A stretch of DNA of 64,000 nucleotides from a virus. Taxonomy: Duplodnaviria > Caudoviricetes. The position numbers were made by a program, and so were the translations under genes. Location: positions 12,498 to 76,497 of IMG/VR virus record IMGVR_UViG_3300043414_001288. The stretch is one strand, 5' to 3'. The notes beneath the pieces were generated by a model, which saw only the letters and a list, made by a program, of their open reading frames with translations, was not told the origin of the DNA and searched no databases. Positions 5,806-46,457 of this stretch are shown one piece after another (position 1 is the stretch's first letter; the number at the start of each line of letters is the position of its first letter).

Positions 5806-6549
5806 TCAAGTTGGATATCTAATAATGACACATCCAGGATTTGATGGTTGTAGACCAACACCACCAGAACCACCTAGTCCAAAATTTGTAGGCAAAGATC
5901 CAGAACCTAATGATCCTACAGGCCAACCAGCTCCTCCACCACCATAAAACAAAGAAGTTCCATTGATAGTATAAGATACTCCTATACCACCAACATTTCC
6001 AGAAGCAGCACCACCAGCACCTCCACCACCACCAGTAAAACTATCACTGCCATTTCCACCAGGAAATCCATATCCACTATTTCCATTGCCTGTTCCTCCA
6101 ACACCGGCTCTATTTACAATTGCTCCAGAACCACCGCTACCAGAACCAAGAGGATTTGAATTTCCTGCTCTAATTTGATCACTCACAACACCACCAGCAC
6201 CACCACGAGCAGTAATACTTCCACCATTATAATTAAAAGTAGTAGCCGCACCAGCACTAATTGCTGCTCCACCGGCACCAACTGTTATGGAATAAGAAAC
6301 ACCAGAAAGAACTGGAACAAATCTTTGATAAAAAACAGAACCTCCTCCACCTCCACTAATTTCATTTGCGCCAAGAGATCCTGTTCCTCCTCCACCACCA
6401 GCAACTACAAGAACATCTACTGTTCCATTTCCTTTTGGTATAAATGTTTGCGAACCAGGAGTGCCAAAAGTATGAACAATCGCACCGGTAATAGAACTAA
6501 TCGTTCCACCAGTTGCTGAAGTTACTCTTGGTCCCGCAATAAATCCCAT
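5806..6549 (-). CDS. Glycine-rich virion/adhesin-like protein
   Basis: 247 aa with the ATGGT..VHTFG..VDVLVVAGGGGG module and C-terminal GCVIIRYPT. TATAAATA at 6574-6581. Confidence 0.7.
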   Translation of the reverse strand: MGFIAGPRVTSATGGTISSITGAIVHTFGTPGSQTFIPKGNGTVDVLVVAGGGGGTGSLGANEISGGGGGSVFYQRFVPVLSGVSYSITVGAGGAAISAGAATTFNYNGGSITARGGAGGVVSDQIRAGNSNPLGSGSGGSGAIVNRAGVGGTGNGNSGYGFPGGNGSDSFTGGGGGAGGAASGNVGGIGVSYTINGTSLFYGGGGAGWPVGSLGSGSLPTNFGLGGSGGVGLQPSNPGCVIIRYPT

Positions 6550-6573
6550 ATTACTTTATTATTCTCTTTTTTG

Positions 6574-6581
6574 TATTTATA
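6574..6581 (-). promoter_or_regulatory. T4-type late promoter TATAAATA
   Basis: Exact match overlapping the GT stop codon, upstream of 5806-6549. Confidence 0.8.
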
Positions 6582-7482
6582 TCGTTTTTATTGATTCAAA
6601 GATTTTATCAATATCAAACAATTCTTCTTGTTCATTAAATGGATATTCATGTTCCGCACCATTAAAATCAAAATCAAACAAATAACTTCCTGGCAATTTA
6701 AAATTATGTGGTTTAATTGTTTCAATATTTGTATGCATATCATATCCAAATACTTTTGGACTTGTACCATTCCATAATACAACAGAAGGAAGTTTAAGTG
6801 CTGCGGCAGCATGTTGTAATGAACTATCAATCAATATTCTTTTATCACTATGAATAATAATACTTAAAAATTCCATAGTTGATAATTGCGTTTCTTCATC
6901 AAATTGAATTGGAGTTGCATTCATTAATTTTGAAGAATTTATTTTTGTAACTTGATAAATTGTATATTCTTTATGATACTTATCTACAATCTGTTGTGCA
7001 ATATCAAAGGGCATATCTCGTGCCCACATATAAGGTTTTGCATCAGCACTAATCAATCCACCATTCGTATGAATTACCATTGTTGGTTTTTTATCCTTTA
7101 CCCAAATATCTTTTGATATTTTCTTCTGTAACGAATTAAAAATCAATTCTGGCATTTCACCATGATATTCTAAATCATACATCTTACACCAAGTTTGAAT
7201 CAGTGGAAGTTTCTTATGAATATGATCTGTAGTAAAATAAGGTTCATTATGAAAAATCAATGAGTCCTTATTTTCAATATAATTTTGATAAAAATAACTG
7301 GTATTTCCTAACTGATATACTCTATCTACAAATGGTAAATTCATAAAAATATCAGTATAAACAGAAACAACAATTAATTTTCTGCTTGGATGATTATTTT
7401 TAATACACTTTGCTACTGCAATTGCTGCTATATGTTTTCCTAATCCACCTTGAACGTGAAAAATACTATAAGTTTCTTTCAT
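6577..7482 (-). CDS. Glycosyltransferase, GT9 / ADP-heptose:LPS heptosyltransferase-like (GT-B fold)
   Basis: N-terminal FHVQGGLGKHIAAIAVAK (GGLGD-like) and C-terminal LIDSSLQHAAAALKLPSVVLWNGTSPKVFGY (DSG-x-H-A-A-x-P-x-V-L-W/F-G). Confidence 0.7.
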   Translation of the reverse strand: MKETYSIFHVQGGLGKHIAAIAVAKCIKNNHPSRKLIVVSVYTDIFMNLPFVDRVYQLGNTSYFYQNYIENKDSLIFHNEPYFTTDHIHKKLPLIQTWCKMYDLEYHGEMPELIFNSLQKKISKDIWVKDKKPTMVIHTNGGLISADAKPYMWARDMPFDIAQQIVDKYHKEYTIYQVTKINSSKLMNATPIQFDEETQLSTMEFLSIIIHSDKRILIDSSLQHAAAALKLPSVVLWNGTSPKVFGYDMHTNIETIKPHNFKLPGSYLFDFDFNGAEHEYPFNEQEELFDIDKIFESIKTI

Positions 7483-7492
7483 TATAAAATCT

Positions 7493-7816
7493 CTATTGCC
7501 AAGGAAGATCTAAAGAAATAGTTTTTGGTTCTGGTGGGTTTAAAACAGAATTAATCCAAACAGCATTATTGATTTCATGATTGCCAAGATTTTCATCAAG
7601 ATTTTCTTTTACCCAACCAAGAACAATTTCTTCACTTAAATCTTCATAAGAAATGAAGTTTTCAATATTTGCTGTTTGTAATTCCATACTTCCACCAGAA
7701 CTACAAGATATATCCCCATCATTTGAATTTACTACATACTCAACACGTACAACTGTTCCACTATCATCATTTAACTGTACTAATTCACGAATATTCCAAA
7801 CATGAGTAATTGACAT
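7493..7816 (-). CDS. Conserved-type phage hypothetical protein
   Basis: 107 aa, tightly packed between the sulfotransferase and GT genes. WNI..L / FISYEDLSEEIVLGWVKE pattern recalls small phage fibre-associated proteins. Confidence 0.6.
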   Translation of the reverse strand: MSITHVWNIRELVQLNDDSGTVVRVEYVVNSNDGDISCSSGGSMELQTANIENFISYEDLSEEIVLGWVKENLDENLGNHEINNAVWINSVLNPPEPKTISLDLPWQ

Positions 7817-7817
7817 T

Positions 7818-8759
7818 TTATTCTCCCTTTGGGTTTACAATTTTAAATTGTTTTGAGCTTAATTTACTATATTTAGAAACAGAAAATTCAGATGCTTTTT
7901 GTCTCCAAATATCCATTCCTTGACATTTACTTAAAATATAAGAAGAAAGAACTTCTGATGGATTGGGAGCAGTTGATTTGAGTTGTGGGCGAACTTCGTG
8001 CATATCTGCAAGTCCATAAGTATTAATATCTTGCTCACGATTTTGATTTTCTAAGTTATTAAAGTCGTGTTCATAATACTCTTCGCCAAGAAACTCATAC
8101 AATTTCTTGAGAGTTTCCTCTGGTGTTTTAACAATGTCTTGATATTCCACAAAGTGCATTCTATCACCAAATTCTTGATTAAATCCTTCTACAATAGCAT
8201 TTAATGATTGACCCAAAATTCCCTCTGGCCCTGCAATATATTCACAACGATTATCATCATTCAAAGGAATATTCAATTTAACTAACTGCTCATCAATGAA
8301 ATTGATTCTGGGATTACCTTCTTTATAAGGATTTCTACGAATCATTGTAATCATTGATGTTAAAATCTCATCAATATCACGAACAGGAACAATAATCTTT
8401 GCCTGCTGTCCAATGTACCCTTCAATATAAGGTACTCGTGCAGTCCAAGCACGATTTTTATCAATAATTACTTCATTATCAACATCAGCATAAAACTGAC
8501 GAATGATATTAGAAATAATCAAAGATGCTTGTTCTGGTTTTGGATATCCGTGATAGAGTTCATCATTTGCCAGATGATTTTCTACGGCATACATTGTAGA
8601 AAGAACTGGACTTGATGGACCAGAATAAAATTTTGGATTTTGATTTAGAATTGAAGAAAGCAAAGTACTTCCGGATCTTGGAAGTCCTGCCATAAAATAA
8701 AACTTTTTACTTCTTAAATGATTTGGATTTGTAGAAGTAAAGAAACCACTTTTTACCAT
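7818..8759 (-). CDS. Sulfotransferase family protein (PAPS-dependent)
   Basis: 5'-PSB motif FMAGLPRSGSTLLSSILNQNP, IIDKNRAW, IIVPVRDIDEILTS (3'-PB) and MHFVEYQDIVKTPEETLKKLYEFLG. Confidence 0.85.
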   Translation of the reverse strand: MVKSGFFTSTNPNHLRSKKFYFMAGLPRSGSTLLSSILNQNPKFYSGPSSPVLSTMYAVENHLANDELYHGYPKPEQASLIISNIIRQFYADVDNEVIIDKNRAWTARVPYIEGYIGQQAKIIVPVRDIDEILTSMITMIRRNPYKEGNPRINFIDEQLVKLNIPLNDDNRCEYIAGPEGILGQSLNAIVEGFNQEFGDRMHFVEYQDIVKTPEETLKKLYEFLGEEYYEHDFNNLENQNREQDINTYGLADMHEVRPQLKSTAPNPSEVLSSYILSKCQGMDIWRQKASEFSVSKYSKLSSKQFKIVNPKGE

Positions 8760-8780
8760 ATCTTATTGACTAATAATCAA

Positions 8781-8809
8781 ATTATATATTCAAACTATGT
8801 ATATGTCAA
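8781..8809 (-). promoter_or_regulatory. Perfect sigma70-type promoter TTGACA-N17-TATAAT
   Basis: Minus strand TTGACA 8809-8804, 17-bp spacer, TATAAT 8786-8781, directly after the TGA of the 2711-aa gene and 22 nt before the sulfotransferase ATG. Confidence 0.85.
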
Positions 8810-11800
8810 TCAACCACCACTACTAATACCAACACGTCTTTCAATTTCAAGTATTCTATTCTTGAGTTCTTGATTTTCTATATCGAGTTCTTTAATAGCA
8901 TTCACAAGAACTGGCAACATCATTGTTTCACGGAGTTTGAGATGATCAGGATCACAAGCATCAACAAGTACTGAAGGACTTGTTTCGTGTTCTAATATAT
9001 TTTGAGCACTAAATCCATATCTACGTGTATTATCTGTAATATTTTTAGAGTTTCTATCTATCCAGTTATATTCAATTGGTTTTATTTTTTGTACAAAATT
9101 CAATCCAAGTGGAACTGGAGTAATATTACCTTTGTCTCTTTCATCGGAAATAATCGTCCAGGCAACTTTAATTGTAGCAGCTGTATGATTAAAGTTACCA
9201 AGAACAATATTATTACTAACCCCAGCAAGAGAAACAAGACCAGGAGTTACACTACTACCAGCGGAAGAACCAATTGCAATATTATTACTTCCAGCAGCAG
9301 ATGCCGGAAATAATGCAGATCTACCAATTGCAACATTATCAGAACCAGTAGTATTATTTCTTCCTGCATAGAAACCAAAAAAGTTATTATAATTTCCAGA
9401 AGTATTCGAACATCCTGCACGATTACCAAAGAAATTATTACCACTTCCAGAATTATTTGTAGCTCCTCCCGCAAAAAGACCAAAATAATTATTAGAACTT
9501 CCAGTAGCAGCTTGCCCAGCTACTGCACCAAAGTAGTTATTGGCAGATCCGCTAACATTAAGACATCCTGCACGAATACCAAAGAAGGTATTATAGTTTC
9601 CAGTAGTATTACATAATCCTGAGGCACACCCAAAGAAAACATTATGACATCCAGTAGATAATGAAGCACCAGCAGAACTACCAATACCAACATTAAAAGG
9701 ACCTGTAACATTAACACCAGGAGTTCCTTTACCAGCACTAAATCCTAAAAAGATATTACTAGAAGCAGTAGTATTAAATTGTCCAGCATAAGTGCCATTG
9801 AAGATATTATGATTTCCAGTAGTATTACTTCTTCCTGCACTATTGCCCTGAAAATTATTACCACAACCAGATGTATTAACAAATCCAGCCAATCTCCCAA
9901 AGAAGATATTATAAGATCCTGTGTTATCCTGTCCCGTCTGAGTTCCAGCAAAGAAATTATTAGTTCCAGAATTATTACACCCAGATTGAGTACCAAAGAA
10001 AATATTATCAAATGCAGCAGTATTTTTTAAACCGGCGAAATTACCAACAAAGAAATTACCAGTACCACTAGTTATTGAAGCACCAGCAGATTGACCAATT
10101 GCTACATTAGCACCTCCACTAATAGCAGCACCACCAATACCTTTACCTGCTCCACAACCAGCAAAGAAATTATGAGAAGCAGTAGTATTACATCCTGCGT
10201 TCAAACCAAAGAAAATATTATAGCATCCACTATTACATCTTCCTGCACCATTACCAAAGAAGTTATTATAATTTCCAGAAGAATTATATTGCCCAGCAGC
10301 ATTACCAAAGAAGTTATTATTACATCCAGTGGTGTTACAACTTCCTGCTATATTACCAAAGAAGTTATTATTACATCCACTGTTGTTAGAAGATCCCGAA
10401 CACCAACCAAAGAAGTTATTGTTATTTCCACCAATATTACTCTGTCCTGCATAAGCACCAATGAAGTTATTACAATTTCCACTAGTATTGGATTTTCCTG
10501 TACTTTTACCTAAAAAGTTATTAAAACATCCAGAAGTTATATTAAAACCAGCACAACTACCAATACCAATATTATTACATCCAGTAATTGAATTAGTATT
10601 TCCTCTACCAGCATTAAAACCAGCAAAGAAGTTACTAGAACCAGTTGTAATACAACATCCAGCACATTCCCCAAACAAGTTATTATCAGTTGCGGAAGTT
10701 ATATTCAGACCAGCACTATTACCAAAAATATTATTAGATGATGCAGTAGATCCAGCTTGTCCTCTTCCCGCAAGATTACCAAAGAAGTTATTATTAATTC
10801 CAGAAGTATTATTAAGACCAGCAGAACAACCAAAGAAGTTATTGTTATTTCCATTCGTAGCATTTGAACATCCAGCATAACGACCAAAGAAGTTATTGTA
10901 AGATCCAGTACCGCTAGTACATCCTGTTCTGTCTCCAAAGAAATTATTATGATTTCCTGTATTCGAAAGTCCAGCACAAGAACCAAAGAAGTTATTACAA
11001 CTTCCTGTACTATTTCTTCCTGCACAAGAACCAAAATAATTATTAGAATTTCCTGTAGTATTAACAAAACCAGAATTAAATCCAAAGAAAATATTATTAA
11101 GTGCAGAAGTTAATGAAGCACCAGCAGAAGCACCAATCGCTACATTACAACTCCCACTAATAACAGCACCACCAATTCCTTTACCTGCTCCACAACCAAC
11201 AAAGAAGTTAAAACAACCAGTAGTATTATTACATCCAGAATTAAATCCAAAGAAAGTATTATAAAGACCAGAAGTTAATGAAGCACCAGTAAAACTACCA
11301 ATACCAATATTATGAGAACCACTCAAGGCACTACCACCCAATCCTTTAGCTGCTCCAAATCCAGCAAAGAAGTTATGAGTACCAATAGTAATACAACATC
11401 CTGATTGATTACCTAAAAATATATTATCAGAACCAGTAGATAGGTTACAAGCAGTAAAAGAACCAATTCCTATATTATTTGAACCAGTAACTGAAGAAGC
11501 ATTTCCTCTACCTGCACTAGACCCAACAAAGAAGTTACTAGAACCAGTGGTAGAACAACATCCTGCATAACAACCAAAGAAGATATTATAATTTCCTGTA
11601 CTATTATTTCTTCCTGCATTAAATCCAAAGAAGGTATTATTACATCCAAGAGTATTATTTCTTCCAGAATAACGACCAAAGAAGTTATTATGACATGCAG
11701 AAGTATTATTAGTTCCAGCACTACAACCAAAGAAATTGTTATAGCATCCAGTATTATTAGACAGTCCAGCATAACGACCAAAGAAGTTATTATCTTTTCC

Positions 11801-32609: not shown

Positions 32610-32951
32610 TTAGTTTAGTGTTTCTAGAATACTTGCGATAAATTTAATACTAGTTGAGTCACTTGCTGACAGAACAAGAGTATCACCAGATTCAAGAACT
32701 AATTTTCCAGATAAAAGATTTGCTGTATCATTTCCTGAAATTGGAAAATTCCTTAAAATTTCAGTAGTTACAGCAACACCAACAGAAGTTCTTCTGTGAT
32801 AAAAAGATATATCATGACTATTTGAATCAATATTTGTTGCCTGTGACAAAAGAATAACACCAGTATATCCAACGGGTGCAGTATAAATTCCAACTTGATT
32901 TGTAGTTCCGACTCTTGTAATCGTTTTAAATACGTTAAGTGCTAATGCCAT
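32610..32951 (-). CDS. Small beta-rich virion-associated protein
   Basis: 113 aa, tightly packed in the late operon. YTAPVG..VILL..ATN and KLVLESGD.L motifs. Confidence 0.6.
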   Translation of the reverse strand: MALALNVFKTITRVGTTNQVGIYTAPVGYTGVILLSQATNIDSNSHDISFYHRRTSVGVAVTTEILRNFPISGNDTANLLSGKLVLESGDTLVLSASDSTSIKFIASILETLN

Positions 32952-32958
32952 CTTTTTT

Positions 32959-35900
32959 TTAACCTCCGAGTGCGAGAATGAATGGTGTCATTGTTGAGAA
33001 CAAACTCTTAGAATAGAACCTACCAGAAATTGTTCCAGTTTGCTGATTAATTGCAACACCATCACCAATTCGGAAATTACCAGATTGATCCGTACTTGTA
33101 TAAACAACCAATCCACCATTACGACCATCAGTTTCATTATCTTGAATTGGAACTCCTCCAGTAGAAGGAAGACATTTAGCAATTTCAGTTCCAGAACCAA
33201 TATATTCAAATGAATGCCCAGATGCTAGTACTCTACTTTGTTTAAAGAAAGGAACAGCAGTTCCAACACCTAGAGCATATGGAAGATTTTCATTTACAGT
33301 AATTGTATAAACATTATTAGAAATTGGTGTAGACCTTAGAACTGAATAATAAGTGGGCAATAATTCAATTGATGCCGTTGCTGTATTTATTCCAGCATTT
33401 GGAGAAGAAATTGAAACTTTTGGAATTGAGGTATATCCTCTTCCACTCGAAATAATTTCAAATCCAGTAACTGAACCATTAACAATTGTTGCAACAGCAG
33501 TTGCCTGAACGCCCCAGTCAGTTGGTGGTGGGTCAATTGTCACAACTGGTGTAGAAATATATCCAGTTCCACCAGAACCAACAACAACTTTATTTACGGT
33601 ATAATACAAATCACCAAAATAAACAACTTGTCCATCAAATGGTCGAATTACATTAATTTTTGCTGTTCCAGTATTTGGAACATAATTATGTACTTGAGTT
33701 GCAATGCCAACATTTACTGTAAATACAGTACTTGAAGTAGAAACTTGAGGCAGTCCAATCAAATTTCCTTTTCCAACAAATGTCGTAATAATTCCAACAA
33801 GATTATCAATATTGGTTTTAACATCCGCACAAGATGCTGGGTCATTATTAGACCCAGTAAGTGGATCTACTGCTAATGTAAGATTTTTTACATTCAATTG
33901 ATTGTTGATTGCAAGTTTCGAATAATCACGAACTGCATGAAATGCTGTAATTGATTGTGCTTCTTCTCCAACCAATCCATAAGAAATTGGTACACCATCT
34001 TTTGTAAAATATGATTTTGTTGCCTCAATAATACTTTTATTTGTATATTTCTTAACATCAGAAGCAACAGCATCTACAATATATCCAATGTCTCTTTTAC
34101 ACTTTAATTGACTAGATAAGAAAGTACCATTATTTAAAGTAATATTGTTTAATGTAATGAGATTTCCAGCAGAAATTGCTTGAGTTGCAATTCCGACAAG
34201 AGTATCAATTGTATTTCTTACATTCGTACAAGAATATGGATTTGTATTTGAAGTAGTTCCAATTCCTGGATTTGGATCCGAAGTAATTGTAAAATCTTTT
34301 ACATTTAACTGATTTGTAATTGCTTTCTTGGCATAGTCACGAACACTATGAAACGCATAAACTGATTGGATTTCTTCACCATTTAATGACCCAGCTGCGG
34401 AACCAGTAAAATATTGTTTTGTAAAATTGATGATATAAGAATTACCACCAGTAAATAAATCAGTAGAGACAGCATCTACAAAATAACCCAAATCTCTTGC
34501 ACACTTATTTGTAGTTGATATTCCAAGATTTTTCGTAGGCAAAGAAGAAGTACTTGCAGAACCTATAACTGTAGTAACAATTCCAACTATTGTATTGATT
34601 GTACTCTGAACATCAGTACAAGAATTTTGATTTCCAGATGGATCTACAGAAATATTTCCTCCACCACCATAAGTAGATGGACCAGAACTAATACCAAGAT
34701 TTTTAGCATTTAATTGATTAGTAATTGCTTTCTTGGCATAATCCCTTAAAGAATTAAAAGCATAAACTGATTGTTGTCTTTCGCTTGTGCCAATTCCAAT
34801 TGGTGTAGCACCATTAAAATACTGTAGAGTAAATTCTCTTGCATAATTATTTCCACCAGTAAATACATCAGTCGCAAGTGCATCAACTAAATACCCAAGG
34901 TCTCTAGCACACTTATTTGTAGTTGTAATTCCAAGATTTATTACAGGCAAAGAAGAAGTACTTGCAGAACCTATAACTGTAGTAACAATTCCAACAAGCG
35001 TATTAATATTGCTTTGAACATCAGTACAAGAATTTTGATTTCCAGATGGATCTACAGAAATATTTCCTCCACCACCACCATAAGTAGATGGACCAGAACT
35101 AATACCAAGATTTTTAGCATTTAATTGATTAGTAATTGCTTTCTTGGCATAATCACGAACAGCATTAAAAGCATAAACTGATTGTTGTCTTTCGCTTGTA
35201 CCAATTCCAGTTGGTGTAGTACCATTAAAATACTGTAAAGTAAATCCTCTCGAATATGCATTACCACCAGTAAATACATCAGTCGAAAGTGAATCTACCA
35301 AATAACCCAAATCTCTAGCACATTTAGTTCCACCTGTTGTAAAATTTCCAAGATTTGTTACTGGTAATGATGAAGTATTTCCGGCACCAATCGTAACAGT
35401 TACAATTCCAACAAGTGTATTAATATTTTCTTGAACATCAGTACAAGCAGTTATATCAGTATTTAAAACTGAATGAACTCCTTGCCCGTATCGAATAGGT
35501 CCACTACTAATTCCAACTTCTTTATATGTAAGTTGATTGGTAATCGCAGAAGTTATTCCAACTCTTACTTGTCTAAAAGCATAAACTGATTGAATTTCTT
35601 CACCAAGCAATCCATTTGAAATTGGATTTCCAGCCCCATCAAAGTATTGAAGAGCAAATTGTTTTACATAATTATTTCCACCGGTAAATACATCCGCAGA
35701 AACTGCATCAATAAAAAATCCTAAATCTCTTTTACATTTAGATTGTGTAGAAGAAATTCCAGGATAAGCATTTGCTGTTGCTGTCCAAGCAATTCCAATA
35801 ATTTCATCTTTATTGTTTTGTATTAAACGATAAGCATCATAATATCTTGAACGAGAATTTGTTCTCGCATCTCCTGGAAAATAAAATGTAGAAAATCCAA

Positions 35901-37458
35901 CAGCAATTGTTGCAAGTGATTTGTCAATAATTTCTTGCTTATTGATTTGTATCAAACGAGAAGCATCATAATATCTTGAACGAGAATTTGTTTGAGTTTC
36001 CCCAGGAAAATAAAAACCAGAAGGAAATCCAACAGCAATTGAAGCAAGTGATTTATCTATAAGTTCTTGTTTATTGATTTGTATCAAACGAGAAGCATCA
36101 TAATAACGATTTTGATTATAAGGAACAGGGTCACTGGGAAATCTAAATGCTGACGGAAATCCAACAGCAATCGAAGCAAGTGATTTGTCTATAATTTCTT
36201 GCTTGTTTTGTTGAATTAAACGATAAGAATCTTTATAACGATAAGAAGCATCACTTGTAGAATCACCAGGAAAGATAAAATCTGGATAATTAATCGCAAT
36301 TGATGCAAGAGATTTATCAACAATTTCTGTTTTATTTGCGGCAATTAAATTCCCAGCATCTACATATCTTCCGGGAGCAACTGTTTTAACTTCAAAGATA
36401 TAACCATTTTTTCCATTAGGATAATATCTAGTTCCTGGTTCATAAGAACAAGTAAATCCAAGACCAGAAAGAGTAATACCCATTCCAACTGAAAAGTTAT
36501 GTGGAACAGAGGTGTAAGCTTTTAAAATTCCTGTTGTATTATCATATGAGGCATTTGTAATATTTAAAGTTGGTACACTCAAATCTAATACAAAAGTATC
36601 AGCATTTGACTCGGCAGCATATGTAACTATTCCAGTATATTTAAGTGGCCCAACACCTTCAGCAACTAATCCATAATTCCCAAATGATGAGTTGGAGTTT
36701 GTTAAATCGCAAGCAGACCCACCTCCACAATATACTGCAACATCATCACAAATCGTAAAGAGAGAAACCAACTGAGCATATCCCTCATTTGTCATCGAGG
36801 CACCGACACCCCCTTGATTATATTGAGTATAACTATCAAGAACCATCGACTTTAATGGTCCAAGTGCGATATCTCCATCGACTTTCAAACCAATACTATT
36901 CGGAATGAAATTTGTACAGTTTTGAGTATATGGAGAATGTTCAATATATCTTTGATTGATTGGATCAAATGCAACTACTGCATTTCCATTAAAGGATGGT
37001 CCAACAAAAGACATTTGTGCGATATAACAACCAGAACCAACATGAAAAAGGTCAGTATCAAGATTTTGTGGTTGAACTGATACTTCTCTTAAACTATCTC
37101 CAATAACACCTACAGTATCGGGAAGTACGATTGGATTATTCTCTATATAATTTCCAGCACTAACCTTAATAACAGTTCCTGCTGTTGCTTCTGCAATTGC
37201 TCCTCTGATTGTTGCTTTTGCGTCTCCGAGTTTTCTTCCTGTGTTTGTGTCTTTTCCATCTTTTGTGACATATAAAATATTTGTAACTTTAATTCCTGCA
37301 CCTAATCTAATAATATCTGTGCCAATTCCAGACCTTTCTCTTTTAGCAAAAAGATCTGCATCATAAGTATTAAGTGCTAATTCTCCTAAATTAATATCTG
37401 CTACTGTTGGTTCTTTTCCAGGTACAGCAGATCTTTTTATCCTGATAGGTGTGGACAT
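32959..37458 (-). CDS. Tailspike/fibre-like virion protein with a pectin-lyase-like beta-helix and five inserted phycobiliprotein-like units
   Basis: 1499 aa. N-terminal IRIKRS..GELALN fibre attachment motif and ILYVTKDG..AKATIRGAI..VIKVSAGNY beta-helix start. Five KC(A/K)RD(L/I)G(Y/F) units. C-terminal ASGHSFEY.GSG is shared with the 2042-aa protein. Confidence 0.7.
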   Translation of the reverse strand: MSTPIRIKRSAVPGKEPTVADINLGELALNTYDADLFAKRERSGIGTDIIRLGAGIKVTNILYVTKDGKDTNTGRKLGDAKATIRGAIAEATAGTVIKVSAGNYIENNPIVLPDTVGVIGDSLREVSVQPQNLDTDLFHVGSGCYIAQMSFVGPSFNGNAVVAFDPINQRYIEHSPYTQNCTNFIPNSIGLKVDGDIALGPLKSMVLDSYTQYNQGGVGASMTNEGYAQLVSLFTICDDVAVYCGGGSACDLTNSNSSFGNYGLVAEGVGPLKYTGIVTYAAESNADTFVLDLSVPTLNITNASYDNTTGILKAYTSVPHNFSVGMGITLSGLGFTCSYEPGTRYYPNGKNGYIFEVKTVAPGRYVDAGNLIAANKTEIVDKSLASIAINYPDFIFPGDSTSDASYRYKDSYRLIQQNKQEIIDKSLASIAVGFPSAFRFPSDPVPYNQNRYYDASRLIQINKQELIDKSLASIAVGFPSGFYFPGETQTNSRSRYYDASRLIQINKQEIIDKSLATIAVGFSTFYFPGDARTNSRSRYYDAYRLIQNNKDEIIGIAWTATANAYPGISSTQSKCKRDLGFFIDAVSADVFTGGNNYVKQFALQYFDGAGNPISNGLLGEEIQSVYAFRQVRVGITSAITNQLTYKEVGISSGPIRYGQGVHSVLNTDITACTDVQENINTLVGIVTVTIGAGNTSSLPVTNLGNFTTGGTKCARDLGYLVDSLSTDVFTGGNAYSRGFTLQYFNGTTPTGIGTSERQQSVYAFNAVRDYAKKAITNQLNAKNLGISSGPSTYGGGGGNISVDPSGNQNSCTDVQSNINTLVGIVTTVIGSASTSSLPVINLGITTTNKCARDLGYLVDALATDVFTGGNNYAREFTLQYFNGATPIGIGTSERQQSVYAFNSLRDYAKKAITNQLNAKNLGISSGPSTYGGGGNISVDPSGNQNSCTDVQSTINTIVGIVTTVIGSASTSSLPTKNLGISTTNKCARDLGYFVDAVSTDLFTGGNSYIINFTKQYFTGSAAGSLNGEEIQSVYAFHSVRDYAKKAITNQLNVKDFTITSDPNPGIGTTSNTNPYSCTNVRNTIDTLVGIATQAISAGNLITLNNITLNNGTFLSSQLKCKRDIGYIVDAVASDVKKYTNKSIIEATKSYFTKDGVPISYGLVGEEAQSITAFHAVRDYSKLAINNQLNVKNLTLAVDPLTGSNNDPASCADVKTNIDNLVGIITTFVGKGNLIGLPQVSTSSTVFTVNVGIATQVHNYVPNTGTAKINVIRPFDGQVVYFGDLYYTVNKVVVGSGGTGYISTPVVTIDPPPTDWGVQATAVATIVNGSVTGFEIISSGRGYTSIPKVSISSPNAGINTATASIELLPTYYSVLRSTPISNNVYTITVNENLPYALGVGTAVPFFKQSRVLASGHSFEYIGSGTEIAKCLPSTGGVPIQDNETDGRNGGLVVYTSTDQSGNFRIGDGVAINQQTGTISGRFYSKSLFSTMTPFILALGG

Positions 37459-40328: not shown

Positions 40329-43300
40329 TTACTTATATTGTGATTGTGAAGCAAATACTGAATATGCAGCAGAACCTGTTTTTATAATTACATAAGTGTA
40401 CAAATCTACACTACTTACATTTCCACCAACTGGAAGAACTTCACCATACCATTTTGGAGTTACAGAACTTCCATCAATTGTGATTGCTGTATTATAATAT
40501 GCAGTTGTTCCTTGTGTCGCAAGAATAGCAACAGTAATGGACTCACCGGTTGTGAGGAAATTATTTAAAGGAGTACCCCCATTTCCACGGAAATTAAGTG
40601 TCCAAGTTCCAGTTGTATCTGAAGTAAAATAATGAACATTATTTGTAATCAAATCAATATTTACAGATCCACTAAGTGGTGTAGCATTTAAACTTACACC
40701 TTCAGTCATTCCAACAACTTTTAATGAAGAAGTAATTCTATTTGCCGTAAAGTTTCCAGAGGCATCACGAGCAACAATTGTTGATGAAGTATTTGCATCT
40801 GTAGCGTCAACATTTATTTGTCTTGCTGTTCCACCTGTATAAGCAGAACCAACAGCAAAAGATAAATGAGTACCTAGAGTTAAATCTGCAAGAGTATTTC
40901 CAAGAGAAATACCAGAAATCGTAGGAGTTGCTAGATTTGCATTTGTAATTCCAGCAGTTCCAGAAAGATTTGCATTTGTCAATCCACTAATCGTATTATA
41001 AGTAGTAGAAATTGTTTTATTTTTAAATATATCTGAAGTTTCTTTTGCAACTAATGTATCAGTTGTAGCAGGTAATGTAAGAATACCAGAAGCAACAGCA
41101 GATGCTCTTACTGTTGTAATTCCAGAAGTAGAACCAGTAAATCCTGCACCTATAGTACCACCAAATGTTGCTGTTGTAATTCCTGTTGCTGTTAAATTTC
41201 GAGATTGAATATCACCACTAATGGTAACATTACCATTAGAAGTTAGATTTCCGACATCTAATGTTCCAGCAAATGTAGAAATTCCACCATAAGTTGATTT
41301 AAATAATCCATCTAAAGTCACTTTTACTGATGAAATAAATGTAGCTGCAATACCAGTAACTTCTAAATTATAAAGTTGCGAAATTCCTTGTGTGTGTTTT
41401 TGTGTATAAGAAGATGTTATACCACCACCAGGAGGTGGTGTTCCGGGAAATGTTGCAGTTCCATAAATGTTAATGCCATCAAATGAAAGGTTTGAAAATG
41501 TTTGTTGTGCAGGAAAGGTTATACTTTCAGTAACAACAATAGATTTAAACTTTGAAGTTCCATTTACTTCTAATGGATTTGTTCCATCAAAAGTTGTAGT
41601 AGTTTGACCAATACCCAACTTATCAATTCGAATATATGTACTATTTGTTTCTCTACTAACTAATCCAAATCGTTTCCAATCTCCATCTGCATAAGTATAT
41701 CCCAAATATCCACCAGTTTGAGGAGTAGCAAGTAATGAAATATCACCAGAACGAACACCAGGAATATCAGAAGAAGTTGGTGTAGAAATTCCAACTGTAA
41801 TTAACTTTGCTTGTGCTGTAGAACCTTTAACAAATAAATTCTTTACTTCAAGACCAGCATTAGATGTACTTGTTACTTTTTGTGTAAAATTAACTGGACC
41901 ATAGAATTGTGATGTTTGATTGTTATTTTCTCCACCTTCAATCGTAAGCCTATCTCTTACAACCAAGTCATCAAACACACCACTCAATCTCTTTGTACTA
42001 TCAGTATTTGCGTCATCTCCAGTATATGTAAATACTGGAGCATCAAATACTTCCTCTTCACCAGTTACAGAAGTAAGTTTTTTTGCACCAGAATAAAATT
42101 CGCCAAGGTCGTTCATTCCAGAATAAACAATAGTTCCACCATCCTGCTCTCTTGCCTGGGAAACAATTATTTCATCTGTGGAAAGAATTCTATCTTGCTT
42201 TTGAGGCATACCAGTTGAATAGTTTCCTGGACCATATCCAAGATATTCGAAAGTATGACCAGAAGCACGAAGATATGATGGACGGTGAAATTGAATTGGT
42301 ATTACACGAACTTTTTTTACAAGTGTTCCATTATCTGCCGGTGCAGATACTGTACCCAGTTGTCCTCTAAGAACTGTCGTACAAGCATCATTTGCAATAC
42401 GAAGAATTTCTGAATTTATTTGTATAAAATCACCCTTTCTAAATCCACCAACACTTGTAATACTAATTGATGTCGATGAAGATGTTAGAGCACTTGAAAG
42501 TGTAGTACTTATTCCAGCATAGATATAAGAAATTCTTCCTCCAAGATTTAATTCACCTTCTCCAATTGCAAGAGCATTTGCCGAAAATTCTTGTCTTAAT
42601 ACAGAACCACCACCAGTATATGTTTTTGTTGCTGAAACCTTTCCAACATTAAATGTAAATGTCGTTAAACCAACAACCTGATTTACTACAAATGAACTAT
42701 CGTAGATAGTATGACCAGTTCCAGTAATTGTAAACTTATTTCCTACAAGTAATCCATGAGAATTTGAAGTTGTAACTGTTGCAATTCCTGTCTGAACACT
42801 TGAGAAATCTAATGAAGTAATTGTATTTCCTTTCGCAGTAACTGCTATAATTGGAACTAAACTATCAGTTCTATTAATAAATTGTCCGACATTATTTGAA
42901 TTATAAACAGTAATCGATTTTGGTCCAGGAATACCAGTAATTTTAAATGTTCCATTATACTTATCACTCGAAACACCAATCACTTGAACTGCATCACCAA
43001 TATTGCTATTAATTGCAGTAACTTGTACTGTTGCAAGTGATGTTCCACCAACAACACTCATCGTATTTCCTACACCATAAGCACTACCACCATCAACAAT
43101 ACTTATGACATTTACAGAACCAGCACTAAGAGTTGCTTTTACTGCTGCACCAGTTCCAGCAGTAGTTCCAGGAACAAGAGAAGCTGAATAAAGTGTAGTT
43201 GAACCATATCCAGAACCACCAGAAGTAAGGCTCAATGTTTTGATTGAATTTAAGTTATGTTCCCTATCAGTATAAAATGTAATATCAGTTCCACTTACGG

Positions 43301-46300
43301 AAGCACCAGTAATTCCAAAACCAATTGTATTTTCTAATATAAAAGAATTTAGTGCTTCTTTTGTGACAGAATTTCTTTTATCGTTAGATGTAATTTTTCC
43401 AAGTGGATCTACATTAGCATATGATATTGTTGCGTCTGGATCTGAATTATAATTATCTCTATCCATTTGTGGATAAAGATTACGAACATCTTGATTATAA
43501 TTCTTTAAACTAATTCCATAACCAACATTTGCAAGTGCTGGAGACACATTTGATGTCATCACAGTCAAATGATAAATTCCATCTTGTCCAGTTGTTGCAG
43601 AACCAGGAATATGTTGTCGGATTTCATCAATTCTGTAAATAAAATAAGAATCTTTATATCTTTCTCTACTTACAGTTGGTAATGCATTTACTTGTTGAGA
43701 TGTGTCTCTTTGATTTATATTATTAGTAAATGTGCCTGGATCTATAGAAATATCAGAAATAGTAAAAGTTTTAGAACTTGGAATAGATGCAATATTAAAA
43801 GAACCATTAAAAACAGAAGATGCCGCACCAGAAATATTATTTGTACTTGTAACATTCTGTATTTTTACAGTATCTCCTATAATAAAATTATGTGGAAGTT
43901 CAGTTGTAATTGTAATTACATTTCCGCCATAAGATGCATTTGTAATAATTTTTGGATTTTTAAGTTGAATTGAGTTTGAAATATCCCCAGAAATAACTCC
44001 AGGACTATCAATTGTTGTTGTACTTGATTCTTGAATAATAAATCCAGCAACAGGAGGACGAGCATTTGTTGCTTCTTTTGGAATTACATATCTAAGCTTA
44101 TAAATACGATCTGTCAAAGAACGATTATCAAGTTTTCTTTTGATAAATGTAGTACTTGTTTCATCACCTAACGCAGTTGTTCCAAGTCCTACGATAGCCG
44201 TATAAATTTGATTTGTAGCATCTAAAGAACTATTAATATACCAACTACCTTGTACTGAATCATACTGAACTGGATGTGCCAATTCTCCAGGTTGTTTATC
44301 TATCGCAGAACTTATAACTGTAAGATTTCCACCAAGATTATTAACTCCGGTTATTGTTCTTGGAGTTGCTGCAATTGCATCACTATATGTTGGTGATAAT
44401 TTAATCTTATTTGAAGATGAATTATACACATAATAAACTTTATTTAATTCAATATTACTTGGTGATTCGGCATTATCACTAAATATTCTAACTTTTTCTC
44501 CATTATAAAATTTATGATCTACCGTTAATGTGAAAGTATCATTAGTAATACTATTAATGCCAGCAGTTCTTCCAACCTTGGAAATTTTATTTGCACTAAA
44601 GGTAGTTCCATCCGGTGATTGCATCAAAATTGGAGCACTATAAGAAGTAAGTGCTGTTCCAGCAGTTACAGTTAAATATAATGAATCGTTTTGTCTTGCA
44701 CCAATTCTATAACTATCCACTTGGTGTGGAGGAATAATATCTTTATTTTTATAAGAATAAAGATAAAGTCGAGAAGGATTTGCATTATTAATTATTTGAT
44801 TTGTATCTAATGACAACCAACCAACTTCTGTCTCATCTGTAGTAATTTCTCTTGGAGGAATAATGTGTGTAACATATCCAGAATTATCCCTATCAAACGA
44901 TTCTTTACGAAAACCAATTGATTCTAATGAAACTGCACCAAAGTTGGAATTTGAATTAGTGATAGACATATCTCCACCACTTTCTGCAACAAAGTGTCTT
45001 GCAAAACCAATCGCAAAAATCGAAACACACTGAATAAAAGCACCATTAGTTACTTTAATGTGATAGTTTTCATACGATGGTTTATAAATCGAACCAGAAT
45101 AAGTATGTAATGGTGAATTTGAAGATTCATCATTATTTTTAAATGATTTGCTTGTCGCATTATAATCAATAAAAGCATTATCATCTTTTTGAAGTGAAAT
45201 GCCGGTAAATTGAGAAACAACCATAGATTTAAATCCGGTTGCTCTATTTCCATCAGCAAACATTCCACATAATCCATAAACAGATCTTAAGGAACAATTG
45301 AAAATATAAGGGGAAGCAGAGGATACACTATCTGCTTCTACAATAACTTGAGAATTTTGTATTTGAACGTCAGAAGGAAGAGCAACTACAGGAGTACTTA
45401 TTGAACTATAAGTAAAAGTAGTAAGTCCTACAACTTCTCTAACTGTAAAAGATCCATTATAAGAAGTTGTATCGATACCAACTCCACTAACAAGAATTGG
45501 AGTATCAACATAAAGTCCATGATTTCTATTTGTAGTTACTGTAATTATTGGAGATGGAGCATTTCCATCTCCAGAAAAAATACTTGTAATTCCAAGAGAA
45601 TTTGCGTTTAAATTTCCAACAATTCGATATTCATCAACAGATGGTTCAAAATCTACACCAGTTGGATAATCAGCAAGAGGTCTTCCAGATGCAGTACCAT
45701 AAACTAATGATATTTTATTATAATACATCTGAAGATCTGTTAGACCAGTTTCAGTAGTTCCTAATTTAACTTGATTAATACCATCAGCATAAACAAATGA
45801 TGTTAATTTATGATGAGAAAAGTTTGGAACATGAGAAGTATTATTATAATTTTTATAAACACTTCGATTTGGATCTGCATCTAAAAATGTAAAGGCAGTA
45901 AAGTAACAAGTACCAGTTACATTAAAAATAGATGAATTTACAATATAATCATCTAAAGGATCTGGGACATAAAGCGGGCGAATTTTTGTCTTTCTTAAAT
46001 CTAAACCAATAATAGATGTGCCACGGGGCATAATAACCCCACCATCTACTGAATTTAGTTTATATAAATCATTATTAATATCATTCAAATCGGTATTATA
46101 AGAAGAACCTAATTCTGTAATTGTTGCTCCAGAGGTAGTCCAAGTTGCTCCAGAACCTGATCCTGTTCTTTTCTTTAATGTTGCCGAGGTATTAATTGAA
46201 AAACCAGGACGATTATCAATATAATGTGTGCCTGGATATACAAGAATTGTTGTTCTATCGATCTTATCGTTATTTCTTCCTACTTGATATGAAAATCTTG

Positions 46301-46457
46301 CTGCTTCCAGCAAAGCTCTTTGTATAGTTTTATATGGACGAGCTAGAGAATTTCCCTTATTCTCATAACTATCCGTAGAGTCAAAATCCGAAGGGCTAAC
46401 ATAAAGAATATTTCCTTCAGCATTCTTTAAAAAATTCTCTAACCTTGATAATGGCAT
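40329..46457 (-). CDS. Large virion structural/tailspike-like protein
   Basis: 2042 aa. MPLSRLENFLKN..ILYV..PYKTIQRALLEAARFSY..GTSIIGLDLRKTKIRP start typical of cyanomyovirus structural proteins. ASGHTFEY C-module. TCTAAATA at 46486-46493. Confidence 0.7.
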   Translation of the reverse strand: MPLSRLENFLKNAEGNILYVSPSDFDSTDSYENKGNSLARPYKTIQRALLEAARFSYQVGRNNDKIDRTTILVYPGTHYIDNRPGFSINTSATLKKRTGSGSGATWTTSGATITELGSSYNTDLNDINNDLYKLNSVDGGVIMPRGTSIIGLDLRKTKIRPLYVPDPLDDYIVNSSIFNVTGTCYFTAFTFLDADPNRSVYKNYNNTSHVPNFSHHKLTSFVYADGINQVKLGTTETGLTDLQMYYNKISLVYGTASGRPLADYPTGVDFEPSVDEYRIVGNLNANSLGITSIFSGDGNAPSPIITVTTNRNHGLYVDTPILVSGVGIDTTSYNGSFTVREVVGLTTFTYSSISTPVVALPSDVQIQNSQVIVEADSVSSASPYIFNCSLRSVYGLCGMFADGNRATGFKSMVVSQFTGISLQKDDNAFIDYNATSKSFKNNDESSNSPLHTYSGSIYKPSYENYHIKVTNGAFIQCVSIFAIGFARHFVAESGGDMSITNSNSNFGAVSLESIGFRKESFDRDNSGYVTHIIPPREITTDETEVGWLSLDTNQIINNANPSRLYLYSYKNKDIIPPHQVDSYRIGARQNDSLYLTVTAGTALTSYSAPILMQSPDGTTFSANKISKVGRTAGINSITNDTFTLTVDHKFYNGEKVRIFSDNAESPSNIELNKVYYVYNSSSNKIKLSPTYSDAIAATPRTITGVNNLGGNLTVISSAIDKQPGELAHPVQYDSVQGSWYINSSLDATNQIYTAIVGLGTTALGDETSTTFIKRKLDNRSLTDRIYKLRYVIPKEATNARPPVAGFIIQESSTTTIDSPGVISGDISNSIQLKNPKIITNASYGGNVITITTELPHNFIIGDTVKIQNVTSTNNISGAASSVFNGSFNIASIPSSKTFTISDISIDPGTFTNNINQRDTSQQVNALPTVSRERYKDSYFIYRIDEIRQHIPGSATTGQDGIYHLTVMTSNVSPALANVGYGISLKNYNQDVRNLYPQMDRDNYNSDPDATISYANVDPLGKITSNDKRNSVTKEALNSFILENTIGFGITGASVSGTDITFYTDREHNLNSIKTLSLTSGGSGYGSTTLYSASLVPGTTAGTGAAVKATLSAGSVNVISIVDGGSAYGVGNTMSVVGGTSLATVQVTAINSNIGDAVQVIGVSSDKYNGTFKITGIPGPKSITVYNSNNVGQFINRTDSLVPIIAVTAKGNTITSLDFSSVQTGIATVTTSNSHGLLVGNKFTITGTGHTIYDSSFVVNQVVGLTTFTFNVGKVSATKTYTGGGSVLRQEFSANALAIGEGELNLGGRISYIYAGISTTLSSALTSSSTSISITSVGGFRKGDFIQINSEILRIANDACTTVLRGQLGTVSAPADNGTLVKKVRVIPIQFHRPSYLRASGHTFEYLGYGPGNYSTGMPQKQDRILSTDEIIVSQAREQDGGTIVYSGMNDLGEFYSGAKKLTSVTGEEEVFDAPVFTYTGDDANTDSTKRLSGVFDDLVVRDRLTIEGGENNNQTSQFYGPVNFTQKVTSTSNAGLEVKNLFVKGSTAQAKLITVGISTPTSSDIPGVRSGDISLLATPQTGGYLGYTYADGDWKRFGLVSRETNSTYIRIDKLGIGQTTTTFDGTNPLEVNGTSKFKSIVVTESITFPAQQTFSNLSFDGINIYGTATFPGTPPPGGGITSSYTQKHTQGISQLYNLEVTGIAATFISSVKVTLDGLFKSTYGGISTFAGTLDVGNLTSNGNVTISGDIQSRNLTATGITTATFGGTIGAGFTGSTSGITTVRASAVASGILTLPATTDTLVAKETSDIFKNKTISTTYNTISGLTNANLSGTAGITNANLATPTISGISLGNTLADLTLGTHLSFAVGSAYTGGTARQINVDATDANTSSTIVARDASGNFTANRITSSLKVVGMTEGVSLNATPLSGSVNIDLITNNVHYFTSDTTGTWTLNFRGNGGTPLNNFLTTGESITVAILATQGTTAYYNTAITIDGSSVTPKWYGEVLPVGGNVSSVDLYTYVIIKTGSAAYSVFASQSQYK

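What the first reader, a model, noticed from the sequence alone, without database searches (positions are those of the whole stretch)
33780..36370. Nested ('Russian-doll') repeat architecture: five N-halves followed by five C-halves
Seen: the order is N1 N2 N3 N4 N5 C1 C2 C3 C4 C5. N is a ~45-aa unit (RYxDAxRLIxxNKxEIIDKSLASIAxxFP, from 36369 to 35847). C is a ~135-aa unit starting at KCxRD. Only N5-C1 is contiguous. Inference: the equal counts suggest each domain was inserted into the loop between helices B and E of the previous one (N4 pairs with C2, N3 with C3, and so on), giving an out-and-back rod of stacked globin-like domains that protrudes from the beta-helix. Ordinary tandem duplication does not produce this order.
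Basis: partly seen in the sequence, partly recalled or inferred. Interest (0 to 1): 0.8.

Follow-up and report, generated by a model that had tools for sequence, protein, structure and literature searches.

The report
Nested phycobiliprotein-like domains in cyanophage fibre
A tail-fibre-like protein of a T4-like cyanophage carries five copies of a phycobiliprotein-type globin domain, each apparently inserted into a loop of the previous one, and relatives hold from none to a dozen units arranged like balanced brackets, a repeat design I could not find described.

Summary
The 1499-aa ORF at 32959-37458 (-) has five ~44-aa N units, then five ~135-aa C units. Only N5-C1 is contiguous.

The nested reading is supported, though I never saw model coordinates or a PAE map.
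- N matches phycobiliprotein helices A-B and C matches helices E-H. N5+C1 superposes on phycobiliprotein beta chains at Z 16-17, rmsd about 2.1 A.
- Of 243 unit-bearing homologs, 233 have a balanced-bracket N/C order, in 24 distinct words. Some are not block-wise, such as N10 C7 N2 C5 and N2 C1 N4 C4 N1 C2. A series runs from 0+0 to 6+6 on the same flanks.
- Nested partners are co-inherited: 47% conserved across architectures, against 23% for parallel pairing and 27% for random.
- Nested pairing gives the highest N-C mutual information of all pairings tried.
- In the window, N3/N4 (84% DNA identity) and C2/C3 (90%) are the newest duplicates, and they are nested partners.
- AF2 folds the whole array at pLDDT 81 and pTM 0.71. 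The N array alone gives 54 and 0.25.
- An N1+C5 complex test gave weak support only.

Likely role: a projection of tunable length, sometimes branched, on a fibre or baseplate protein. What it binds is unknown.

The parts
32959..37458 (-). Whole gene, 1499 aa: tail-fibre-like structural protein of a T4-like cyanophage (Kyanoviridae-like)
   Evidence: ORF. PHROG tail-fibre families phrog_4527 (E 1e-227) and phrog_17885 (E 5e-177). Nearest isolates are Synechococcus and Prochlorococcus myoviruses.
36370..37458 (-). N-terminal part (aa 1-363), shared with array-less homologs; probably an Mtd_N-like start followed by a beta-helix
   Evidence: Conserved in P-SSM2 gp293 and S-SRM01 gp329, 617-619 aa, which have no N or C units. 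Atlas feature hits to viral Mtd_N, DUF1565 and pectate-lyase clusters, a lead only.
36241..36369 (-). N1 (aa 364-406): helices A-B of the outermost domain; proposed partner C5
   Evidence: Two helices in the AF2 model. Orthologous to the first N of the 3+3 and 4+4 forms.
36109..36240 (-). N2 (aa 407-450); proposed partner C4
35977..36108 (-). N3 (aa 451-494); proposed partner C3; recent duplicate of N4
   Evidence: 84% DNA identity to N4, next best 72%. Both N3 and N4 match N3' of the 4+4 forms.
35848..35976 (-). N4 (aa 495-537); proposed partner C2
35740..35847 (-). N5 (aa 538-573): 'closing' type N, whose helix B runs straight into helix E of C1
   Evidence: Different second helix (IIGIAWTATANAYPG). 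Together with C1 it matches phycobiliprotein chains from residue 32 to 172.
35326..35739 (-). C1 (aa 574-711): helices E-H of the innermost domain; contiguous with N5
   Evidence: VIA Z 16-17, rmsd 2.0-2.4 A over 130-139 residues against phycoerythrin and phycocyanin beta chains. KCKRDLGFF aligns with KCARDIGYY around Cys84 of C-phycocyanin alpha.
34915..35325 (-). C2 (aa 712-848); proposed partner N4; recent duplicate of C3
   Evidence: 90% DNA identity to C3, next best 68%. C2 and C3 both match C2' of the 4+4 forms.
34507..34914 (-). C3 (aa 849-984); proposed partner N3
34105..34506 (-). C4 (aa 985-1118); proposed partner N2
   Evidence: Matches C3' of the 4+4 forms and C2'' of the 3+3 forms, the nested partners of the orthologs of N2.
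33715..34104 (-). C5 (aa 1119-1248); proposed partner N1
   Evidence: N1+C5 given as separate chains: ipSAE 0.50 against a best control of 0.01, rated weak support.
32962..33714 (-). C-terminal part (aa 1249-1499), shared with array-less homologs; ends ...TPFILALGG
   Evidence: phrog_17885 match at aa 1238-1498. The same C-terminus occurs in nearly all complete homologs.
32610..32951 (-). Small 113-aa gene directly downstream, syntenic with the fibre gene in isolates; possible assembly factor (inference)
   Evidence: phrog_1276, function unknown. Genes of the same size follow the orthologs in P-SSM2, S-SRM01 and phage B3.

Best explanation
The middle of this cyanophage fibre protein is a recursively nested array of five phycobiliprotein-like globin domains. 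Each domain is split at the junction between helix B and helix E. The N unit supplies helices A-B and the C unit supplies helices E-H. The next domain is inserted whole into that junction. The chain therefore runs outward through N1 to N5, turns at the only contiguous domain (N5-C1), and runs back through C1 to C5. The pairs are N4-C2, N3-C3, N2-C4 and N1-C5. Both ends of the array lie together at its base, so the whole array behaves as one removable insert between the conserved N-terminal part and the conserved C-terminal part. Adding or removing matched N/C pairs changes the length of a projecting stack, and in relatives its branching, without disturbing the flanks. Shown here: the unit order, the homology to phycobiliproteins, the complete fold of N5-C1, the bracket grammar, co-inheritance and covariation of nested partners, and the loss of model confidence when the N units stand alone. 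Inferred: physical contact in the outer pairs, the rod shape, and the role as a spacer or reach-adjusting projection whose distal tip is the innermost domain.
For: (1) Order and boundaries of the units.
(2) Homology. Pfam PF00502 scores 29.1 bits against a cut-off of 22.2. The N1-N4 region alone matches profile positions 32-67 at E 0.005, and N5-C1 matches positions 31-107. All nine PDB sequence hits of N5-C1 are C-phycocyanin alpha chains, aligned at KCxRDxGY around Cys84. In the AF2 model, N5+C1 aligns to about 170 phycobiliprotein chains at Z>=8, best Z 16.9, rmsd 2.0-2.4 A over 130-139 residues, chain residues 32-172.
(3) Grammar. Of 243 unit-bearing homologs, 233 give balanced-bracket words, with 24 distinct words and depth up to 10. 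These include N10 C7 N2 C5 (20 proteins), N2 C1 N4 C4 N1 C2 (35 proteins, including the S-RSM4 'putative short tail fibre') and S-PM2 gp091, which is N1 C1 N4 C4. A 0+0 to 6+6 series exists on the same flanks.
(4) Which N pairs with which C. Compared with 4+4 forms, the extra units are N3/N4 (both match N3') and C2/C3 (both match C2'), and N3'-C2' are nested partners. At DNA level N3-N4 are 84% and C2-C3 90% identical, while all other pairs are at most 72%. Across 25 representative architectures, outer-partner relations are conserved in 47.4% of cases under nesting, 23.3% under parallel pairing and 26.9+-1.0% under random matchings. N-C column mutual information over 919 outer pairs gives a top-20 sum of 12.87 for nesting. 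The alternatives give 8.42 (parallel), 10.16, 9.13 and 8.75 (nesting shifted by +1, -1, +2) and 6.69+-0.10 (random).
(5) Models. The full array gives pLDDT 81 and pTM 0.71, with each N as two helices and each C as four. The N array alone, with the same 91 sequences, gives pLDDT 54.4 and pTM 0.25.
(6) N1 and C5 as separate chains gave a median ipSAE of 0.50 against a best of 3 controls of 0.01, rated 'weak support'. The mark was reached by 58 of 80 solved complexes and 2 of 110 mismatched pairs. At 0.60 or under, only 7 of those 80 solved complexes passed, as did both mismatches that passed. The runs agree in at least 80% of contacts and the partner's pLDDT is 61-63. Because phycobiliprotein structures are solved, this pass may reflect likeness to them.
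Against: No coordinates or PAE were available, so contacts in the outer pairs were never seen directly. The complex test is weak. A within-protein correlation of N-N with C-C similarity did not favour nesting over first-in-first-out pairing in 7 of 19 proteins. I attribute that to end effects, because both arrays have divergent end units, but the test is confounded rather than supportive. The bracket property alone does not separate nested from first-in-first-out pairing. About 46 of the 233 balanced words rely on weak N hits with E between 0.01 and 10. Three apparently complete proteins carry one C too many (P0096, P0004, P0234). Homologs are related, so the counts are not independent. The function is not tested at all.
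Confidence: 0.8

Rival explanations
1. Fold-back rod without integrated domains. The N units form a helical stalk of their own, and the C domains, each complete in itself, fold back along it. Numbers match because lengths must match, not because N and C build one globin domain.
For: It would also give equal numbers and mirror-image neighbours. I could not inspect contacts. The helices persist in the N-only model.
Against: N1-N4 are clear homologs of N5, which supplies helices A-B of a complete phycobiliprotein fold. A C unit alone has only helices E-H. The N array alone loses confidence, with pTM 0.25. The top covarying columns link N positions 6-11 with C positions 14-31, as expected for helix packing inside one domain.
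Confidence: 0.08
2. Same split-domain logic, but the completion is in trans. In a trimeric fibre the N unit of one chain completes the C unit of a neighbouring chain (domain swap), or the outer pairs are not strictly nested.
For: Fibre proteins of this kind are usually trimers (general knowledge, not tested here). N1 and C5 dock as separate chains at ipSAE 0.50 against a best control of 0.01, rated weak support, with the calibration counts as given under the best explanation. That shows covalent continuity is not needed in the model.
Against: The monomer model already reaches pTM 0.71. Linkers of only about 14 residues between successive N units and 5-20 residues between successive C units fit in-chain nesting. 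The covariation and co-duplication data are equally satisfied by in-chain pairing.
Confidence: 0.08
3. Two independent tandem arrays whose equal numbers are coincidence or an artefact of gene calling and assembly.
For: Ordinary unequal crossing-over expands each array separately. A few unequal cases exist (P0096, P0004, P0234).
Against: 233 of 243 proteins are balanced across 24 architectures, including non-block words. Isolate genomes (S-PM2, S-RSM4, B3) show the same. Nested pairing exceeds every alternative in covariation.
Confidence: 0.02

Closest known systems
Phycobiliproteins (phycocyanin and phycoerythrin alpha and beta subunits; Pfam PF00502)
   Same: Same globin-like helix arrangement A, B, E-H (Z 16-17). 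The CxRD motif with the cysteine aligned to Cys84 is conserved. A second conserved cysteine sits just before helix H, where beta-Cys153 would fall if helix H aligns without gaps (inference).
   Different: Sequence identity is only 11-20%. There is no X-Y helix hairpin of its own, so no sign of alpha/beta pairing. A long G-H insert carries a beta hairpin. The domain sits in a virion protein, and is split and nested. Bilin binding is untested.
Domain insertion, including split PH domains and two-level nested insertions (general knowledge)
   Same: The parent domain is discontinuous in sequence, and the insert sits in a surface loop with its two ends close together.
   Different: Here the same domain is inserted into itself recursively, 5 deep in the window and up to 10 deep in relatives. 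Several inserts can sit in series in one loop, giving tree-like words. Copy number varies between close relatives. I found no description of this, although my literature searches were limited.
PB-loop of the phycobilisome core-membrane linker ApcE (from memory, not tested here)
   Same: A phycobiliprotein-type domain that tolerates a long insertion after helix B.
   Different: The ApcE insert is a loop, not another globin domain, and it is single-level.
Tail-fibre and baseplate proteins of T4-like cyanophages: P-SSM2 gp293, S-SRM01 gp329, phage B3 gp329, S-PM2 gp091, S-RSM4 'putative short tail fibre'
   Same: P-SSM2 gp293, S-SRM01 gp329 and B3 gp329 share the N- and C-terminal parts. B3, S-PM2 and S-RSM4 share the N/C units.
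   Different: Unit number and arrangement differ: none in P-SSM2 and S-SRM01, N3 C3 N2 C2 in B3, N1 C1 N4 C4 in S-PM2, N2 C1 N4 C4 N1 C2 in S-RSM4. None of the five records names phycobiliprotein-like units in its annotation.

Membership tests
Phycobiliprotein fold (PF00502) | Globin-like helix core A, B, E, F', G, H superposable on solved phycobiliproteins | tested here: met
   N5+C1 of the AF2 model: Z 16-17, rmsd 2.0-2.4 A, 130-139 residues, chain residues 32-172. 172 chains score Z>=8.
Phycobiliprotein fold (PF00502) | Sequence score above Pfam's gathering cut-off (22.2 bits) | tested here: inconclusive
   The whole protein scores 29.1 bits. Single pieces fall below the cut-off: N5-C1 14.4 bits, the N1-N4 region 17.2 bits, C2-C5 no hit. 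Many homologs carry a precomputed PF00502 hit.
Phycobiliprotein fold (PF00502) | Cysteine at the Cys82/84 bilin site within C-x-R-D | tested here: met
   kckrdlgff aligns with kcardigyy at chain residue 84. The Cys is kept in 99.6% of 1138 distinct C units, and R and D in at least 90%.
Phycobiliprotein fold (PF00502) | N-terminal X-Y helix pair that builds the alpha/beta monomer | tested here: not met
   An N unit has only two helices, and they align from chain residue 32 on. In some alignments helix B of the preceding N lies over chain residues 1-16, but it belongs to another domain.
Phycobiliprotein fold (PF00502) | Covalently bound bilin | not testable with these tools
   This needs spectroscopy or mass spectrometry of the virion or of recombinant protein.
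Nested domain insertion | The two halves of each parent domain flank a complete inserted domain in the sequence | tested here: met
   The order is N1-N5 then C1-C5, with N matching helices A-B and C matching helices E-H. 233 of 243 homologs give balanced-bracket words.
Nested domain insertion | The separated halves pack into one fold (N4-C2, N3-C3, N2-C4, N1-C5) | tested here: inconclusive
   The evidence is indirect. Full-array pTM is 0.71, against 0.25 for the N units alone. Covariation and co-duplication favour nesting. The N1+C5 complex scored 0.50 against a best control of 0.01, weak support only. No coordinates or PAE were seen.
Nested domain insertion | The insert can be absent without breaking the host protein | tested here: met
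   P-SSM2 gp293 and S-SRM01 gp329 have both flanks and no units. Complete 1+1 forms are P0268 and P0269.
T4-like cyanophage tail-fibre or baseplate protein | Homology to annotated fibre proteins and position in a late structural gene block | tested here: met
   phrog_4527 and phrog_17885. Neighbouring genes hit tail-fibre and baseplate-wedge PHROGs. Presence in the virion was not tested here.

The most novel reading that the evidence does not exclude
Beyond the nesting, the domains may still be working biliproteins. The Cys82/84-type cysteine in C-x-R-D and a second cysteine near the beta-Cys153 position are kept in 99.6% of 1138 units. That would let the fibre carry covalently bound bilins. 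It would give a virion-side use for the bilin-synthesis and lyase-like genes (ho1, pebS, pcyA, cpeT) that cyanophages are known to carry. Such a fibre would be pigmented, possibly light-responsive, or a mimic of a phycobilisome rod. The alternative for the two cysteines is a structural disulfide.
Probability: 0.15. Interest if true: 0.95.

Novelty: new variant of a known kind. Interest (0 to 1): 0.8.

Why it matters
Protein repeats are normally tandem, which amounts to a regular grammar. Here a natural family follows a bracket grammar: the same domain is inserted into itself up to ten levels deep, and sometimes branches. Copy number changes between close relatives while the pairs stay matched.

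If confirmed by a structure, this family would offer three things. It would be a natural model for how split domains refold around large inserts. It would be a way to build rigid projections of tunable length whose two ends stay together. It would pose an evolutionary puzzle, because two distant segments must be gained or lost together.

It also shows that a light-harvesting protein fold of the host lineage is widespread in structural proteins of marine cyanophages, in hundreds of metagenomic and isolate proteins. That bears on host recognition and perhaps on why these phages carry pigment genes.

Tried and rejected
- Foldseek of the whole 921-residue model against PDB gave mostly noise (membrane pumps). 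Phycoerythrin chains appeared only at ranks 29-50. The VIA re-alignment was needed.
- A profile of the full-length alignment A1 found nothing in PDB at E 0.01.
- C5 alone gave no meaningful PDB or Pfam hit.
- The flanking parts have no PDB sequence relatives.
- The within-protein Mantel-type test was confounded by divergent end units. It gave first-in-first-out pairing higher correlations in 7 of 19 proteins, so I do not count it either way.
- BFVD holds fragments of relatives only. The best was the S-CAM1 tail protein at TMq 0.50, and it gave no contact information.
- No model coordinates are written to the script machine, so no contact map could be computed.
- Searches of the window's own record for CpeT, heme oxygenase and bilin reductase found nothing. 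The record is a 76.5-kb fragment estimated at 36% complete, so this says nothing.
- No other ORF of the window carries N or C units.
- Literature searches for phycobiliprotein-like phage fibres or multi-level nested insertions found nothing relevant. That is weak evidence of novelty.
- I looked for a hidden extra N unit in P0004 and P0096 and found none.


Full report
**What is there**

The finding lies in one ORF, 32959-37458 on the minus strand, 1499 aa. PHROG profiles place it among cyanophage tail-fibre proteins: phrog_4527 at E 1e-227 and phrog_17885 at E 5e-177. The nearest public DNA is from Synechococcus and Prochlorococcus myoviruses at 64-73% identity. The neighbouring genes hit tail-fibre and baseplate-wedge families.

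The window's record is a 76.5-kb viral fragment, estimated 36% complete.

**Observation**

Motif search places N units at aa 364, 407, 451, 495 and 538. C units start at aa 574, 712, 849, 985 and 1119. HMMs built from the units score each N at E 1e-17 to 1e-20 and each C at E 1e-53 to 1e-57, and they hit no other ORF of the window. Tandem Repeats Finder sees periods of 132 and 411 nt.

**What the units are**

- Pfam PF00502 (phycobilisome protein) scores 29.1 bits on the whole protein, against a cut-off of 22.2.
- On pieces, the N1-N4 region matches profile positions 32-67 and N5-C1 matches positions 31-107.
- All nine PDB sequence hits of N5-C1 are C-phycocyanin alpha chains. KCKRDLGFF aligns with KCARDIGYY, so the phage cysteine falls on Cys84.
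- An AF2 model of aa 340-1260 with 91 aligned homologs has pLDDT 81 and pTM 0.71. Every N unit is two helices. Every C unit is four helices, and C1 also carries a beta hairpin.
- Re-alignment of that model to PDB gives phycoerythrin and phycocyanin beta chains at Z 16-17, rmsd 2.0-2.4 A over 130-139 residues. Model residues 193-352 (N5+C1) cover chain residues about 30-177.

So N corresponds to helices A-B and C to helices E-H. The break lies at the B/E junction.

**Do N and C numbers co-vary?**

I collected 271 proteins from three homology searches. I added genes from four isolates and scored them with iterated unit HMMs.

With the same flanks there is a full series:

| Form | Example | Length |
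|---|---|---|
| 0+0 | P-SSM2 gp293, S-SRM01 gp329 | 617-619 aa |
| 1+1 | P0268, P0269 | 780-788 aa |
| 2+2 | P0248 and others | P0248 is cut at 797 aa |
| 3+3 | 9 proteins | about 1140 aa |
| 4+4 | 71 proteins | about 1325 aa |
| 5+5 | 8 proteins | about 1500 aa |
| 6+6 | 3 proteins | about 1700 aa |

Larger proteins carry words that are not block-wise equal but are still balanced brackets if N opens and C closes:

- N10 C7 N2 C5 (20 proteins)
- N2 C1 N4 C4 N1 C2 (35 proteins, including the S-RSM4 'putative short tail fibre')
- N2 C1 N3 C4
- N1 C1 N4 C1 N3 C6
- N2 C1 N1 C1 N3 C1 N2 C3 N2 C4
- S-PM2 gp091, which is N1 C1 N4 C4
- phage B3 gp329, which is N3 C3 N2 C2

Of 243 proteins with units, 233 are balanced, in 24 distinct words with depth up to 10. 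About 46 of these need weak N hits (E between 0.01 and 10). Those weak hits fall exactly where a bracket is missing and hardly anywhere else.

The ten exceptions break down as follows:

- three ORFs cut at a contig end (P0024, P0079, P0094);
- four detection problems (P0090, P0212, P0169, P0187);
- three proteins with one C too many (P0096, P0004, P0234), which may be collapsed assemblies or true intermediates.

**Which N goes with which C**

Balance alone fits both last-in-first-out (nested) and first-in-first-out pairing. Four results favour nesting.

1. N5-C1 is a complete domain, which excludes first-in-first-out pairing.
2. Against 4+4 homologs, N3 and N4 both match N3', and C2 and C3 both match C2'. 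N3'-C2' are nested partners. Against 3+3 forms, (N1,C5), (N2,C4) and (N5,C1) match the three nested pairs. At DNA level N3-N4 are 84% and C2-C3 90% identical, and every other pair is at most 72%.
3. Across 25 representative architectures, and counting only outer units, the partner relation is conserved in 47.4% of comparisons under nesting. It is 23.3% with the outer units paired in parallel and 26.9+-1.0% (maximum 29.8%) with random matchings.
4. Mutual information between N and C alignment columns was measured over 919 outer pairs (effective number 264). Nesting gives the highest value of every pairing tried:

| Pairing | Top-20 MI | Total MI | Top-20 after APC |
|---|---|---|---|
| Nested | 12.87 | 516 | 4.57 |
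| Parallel | 8.42 | 410 | 2.04 |
| Nested shifted +1 | 10.16 | 435 | 2.42 |
| Nested shifted -1 | 9.13 | 426 | 2.15 |
| Nested shifted +2 | 8.75 | 408 | 2.12 |
| Random within-protein | 6.69+-0.10 | 313+-5 | 1.69+-0.07 |

A simpler within-protein matrix correlation was confounded by divergent end units and is not counted.

**Do the N units stand alone?**

The N array alone (aa 355-573), folded with the same 91 sequences, gives pLDDT 54.4 and pTM 0.25. The same residues average about 83 in the full-array model.

N1 and C5 given as separate chains scored a median ipSAE of 0.50 against a best of 3 controls of 0.01, rated weak support.

- The mark was reached by 58 of 80 solved complexes and 2 of 110 mismatched pairs.
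- At 0.60 or under, only 7 of those 80 solved complexes passed, as did both mismatches that passed.
- The runs agree in at least 80% of contacts, and the partner's pLDDT is 61-63.
- Because phycobiliprotein structures are solved, this pass may reflect likeness to them.

**Limits**

The tools return no coordinates or PAE. The anti-diagonal contacts are inferred from sequence statistics, model confidence and chain connectivity. They were not seen. Whether N-C completion is within one chain or between chains of a trimer cannot be told.

**How it most likely works (inference)**

The array begins and ends at the same place, so it is a self-contained insert between the N-terminal part and the C-terminal part. 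The N-terminal part is Mtd_N-like and beta-helix-like by atlas features. Each added matched pair adds one globin-like level. Words with several inserts in one loop would give branched projections.

The innermost domain is always of a distinct 'closing' type and would be the distal tip. A role as a projection of adjustable length on a fibre or baseplate protein, for reach or host-surface contact, is the most economical reading. What it binds is unknown.

How matched pairs arise is also open. Two separate unequal crossovers, with selection against unbalanced intermediates, would fit the rare forms with one C too many.

**Comparison and novelty**

The fold is that of phycobiliproteins, but the domain lacks its own X-Y helices, is only 11-20% identical, and sits in a virion protein.

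Domain insertion is well known, including one domain inside a copy of itself. Recursive self-insertion to depth 5-10, with branching and variable copy number, is something I could not find described. My searches were limited, and the annotations of the isolate genes do not mention it. I class it as a new variant of a known kind.

I reached the same view independently, and quantified the cysteine conservation.

Noticed in passing
window 33715-35739 (C1-C5); cysteines at aa 575/672, 713/811, 850/947, 986/1077, 1120/1210: Each C unit has two cysteines, each kept in 99.6% of 1138 distinct units from homologs. R and D of C-x-R-D are kept in at least 90%. The first aligns with phycocyanin alpha Cys84. 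The second lies one residue before helix H and would fall on beta-Cys153 if helix H aligns without gaps. The cysteines could be bilin sites or a disulfide, and this is undecided.
   Followed up: partly
L001 (P-SSM2) 5994-9012: In P-SSM2 the array-less ortholog (gp293) lies two genes from heme oxygenase (gp291), with psbA nearby. This may be chance. The window's own record is a fragment and shows no ho1, bilin reductase or cpeT.
   Followed up: partly
homologs P0096 (N4 C5), P0004 (N7 C5 N2 C5), P0234 (N2 C1 N3 C3 N1 C3): Three apparently complete proteins have exactly one C unit too many, and no hidden N was found. They could be evolutionary intermediates of pair gain, or collapsed N repeats in short-read assemblies.
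   Followed up: partly
window 35740-35847 (N5) and the N units of homologs: In the sequences I read, every N unit directly followed by a C unit is of a distinct 'closing' type (second helix ...AW.....YP.I...). N units followed by another N end in a ...F.FPG linker. This was seen in P0102, P0004, S-PM2 gp091 and others.
   Followed up: partly
window 32610-32951 (-): A small gene of 113 aa (phrog_1276, function unknown) follows the fibre gene. Genes of the same size follow the orthologs in P-SSM2, S-SRM01 and phage B3. It may be a fibre assembly factor.
   Followed up: no
window 40329-46457 (-): The 2042-aa neighbour hits the same giant PHROG (phrog_4527, 'short tail fiber') in a different profile region (627-1126). 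It has no N or C units, so that PHROG is a mosaic of unrelated fibre modules.
   Followed up: no
homolog P0242 (746 aa): This ORF has six C units and no N unit, and lacks the usual C-terminus. It is probably a piece of a broken or mis-called larger gene.
   Followed up: no
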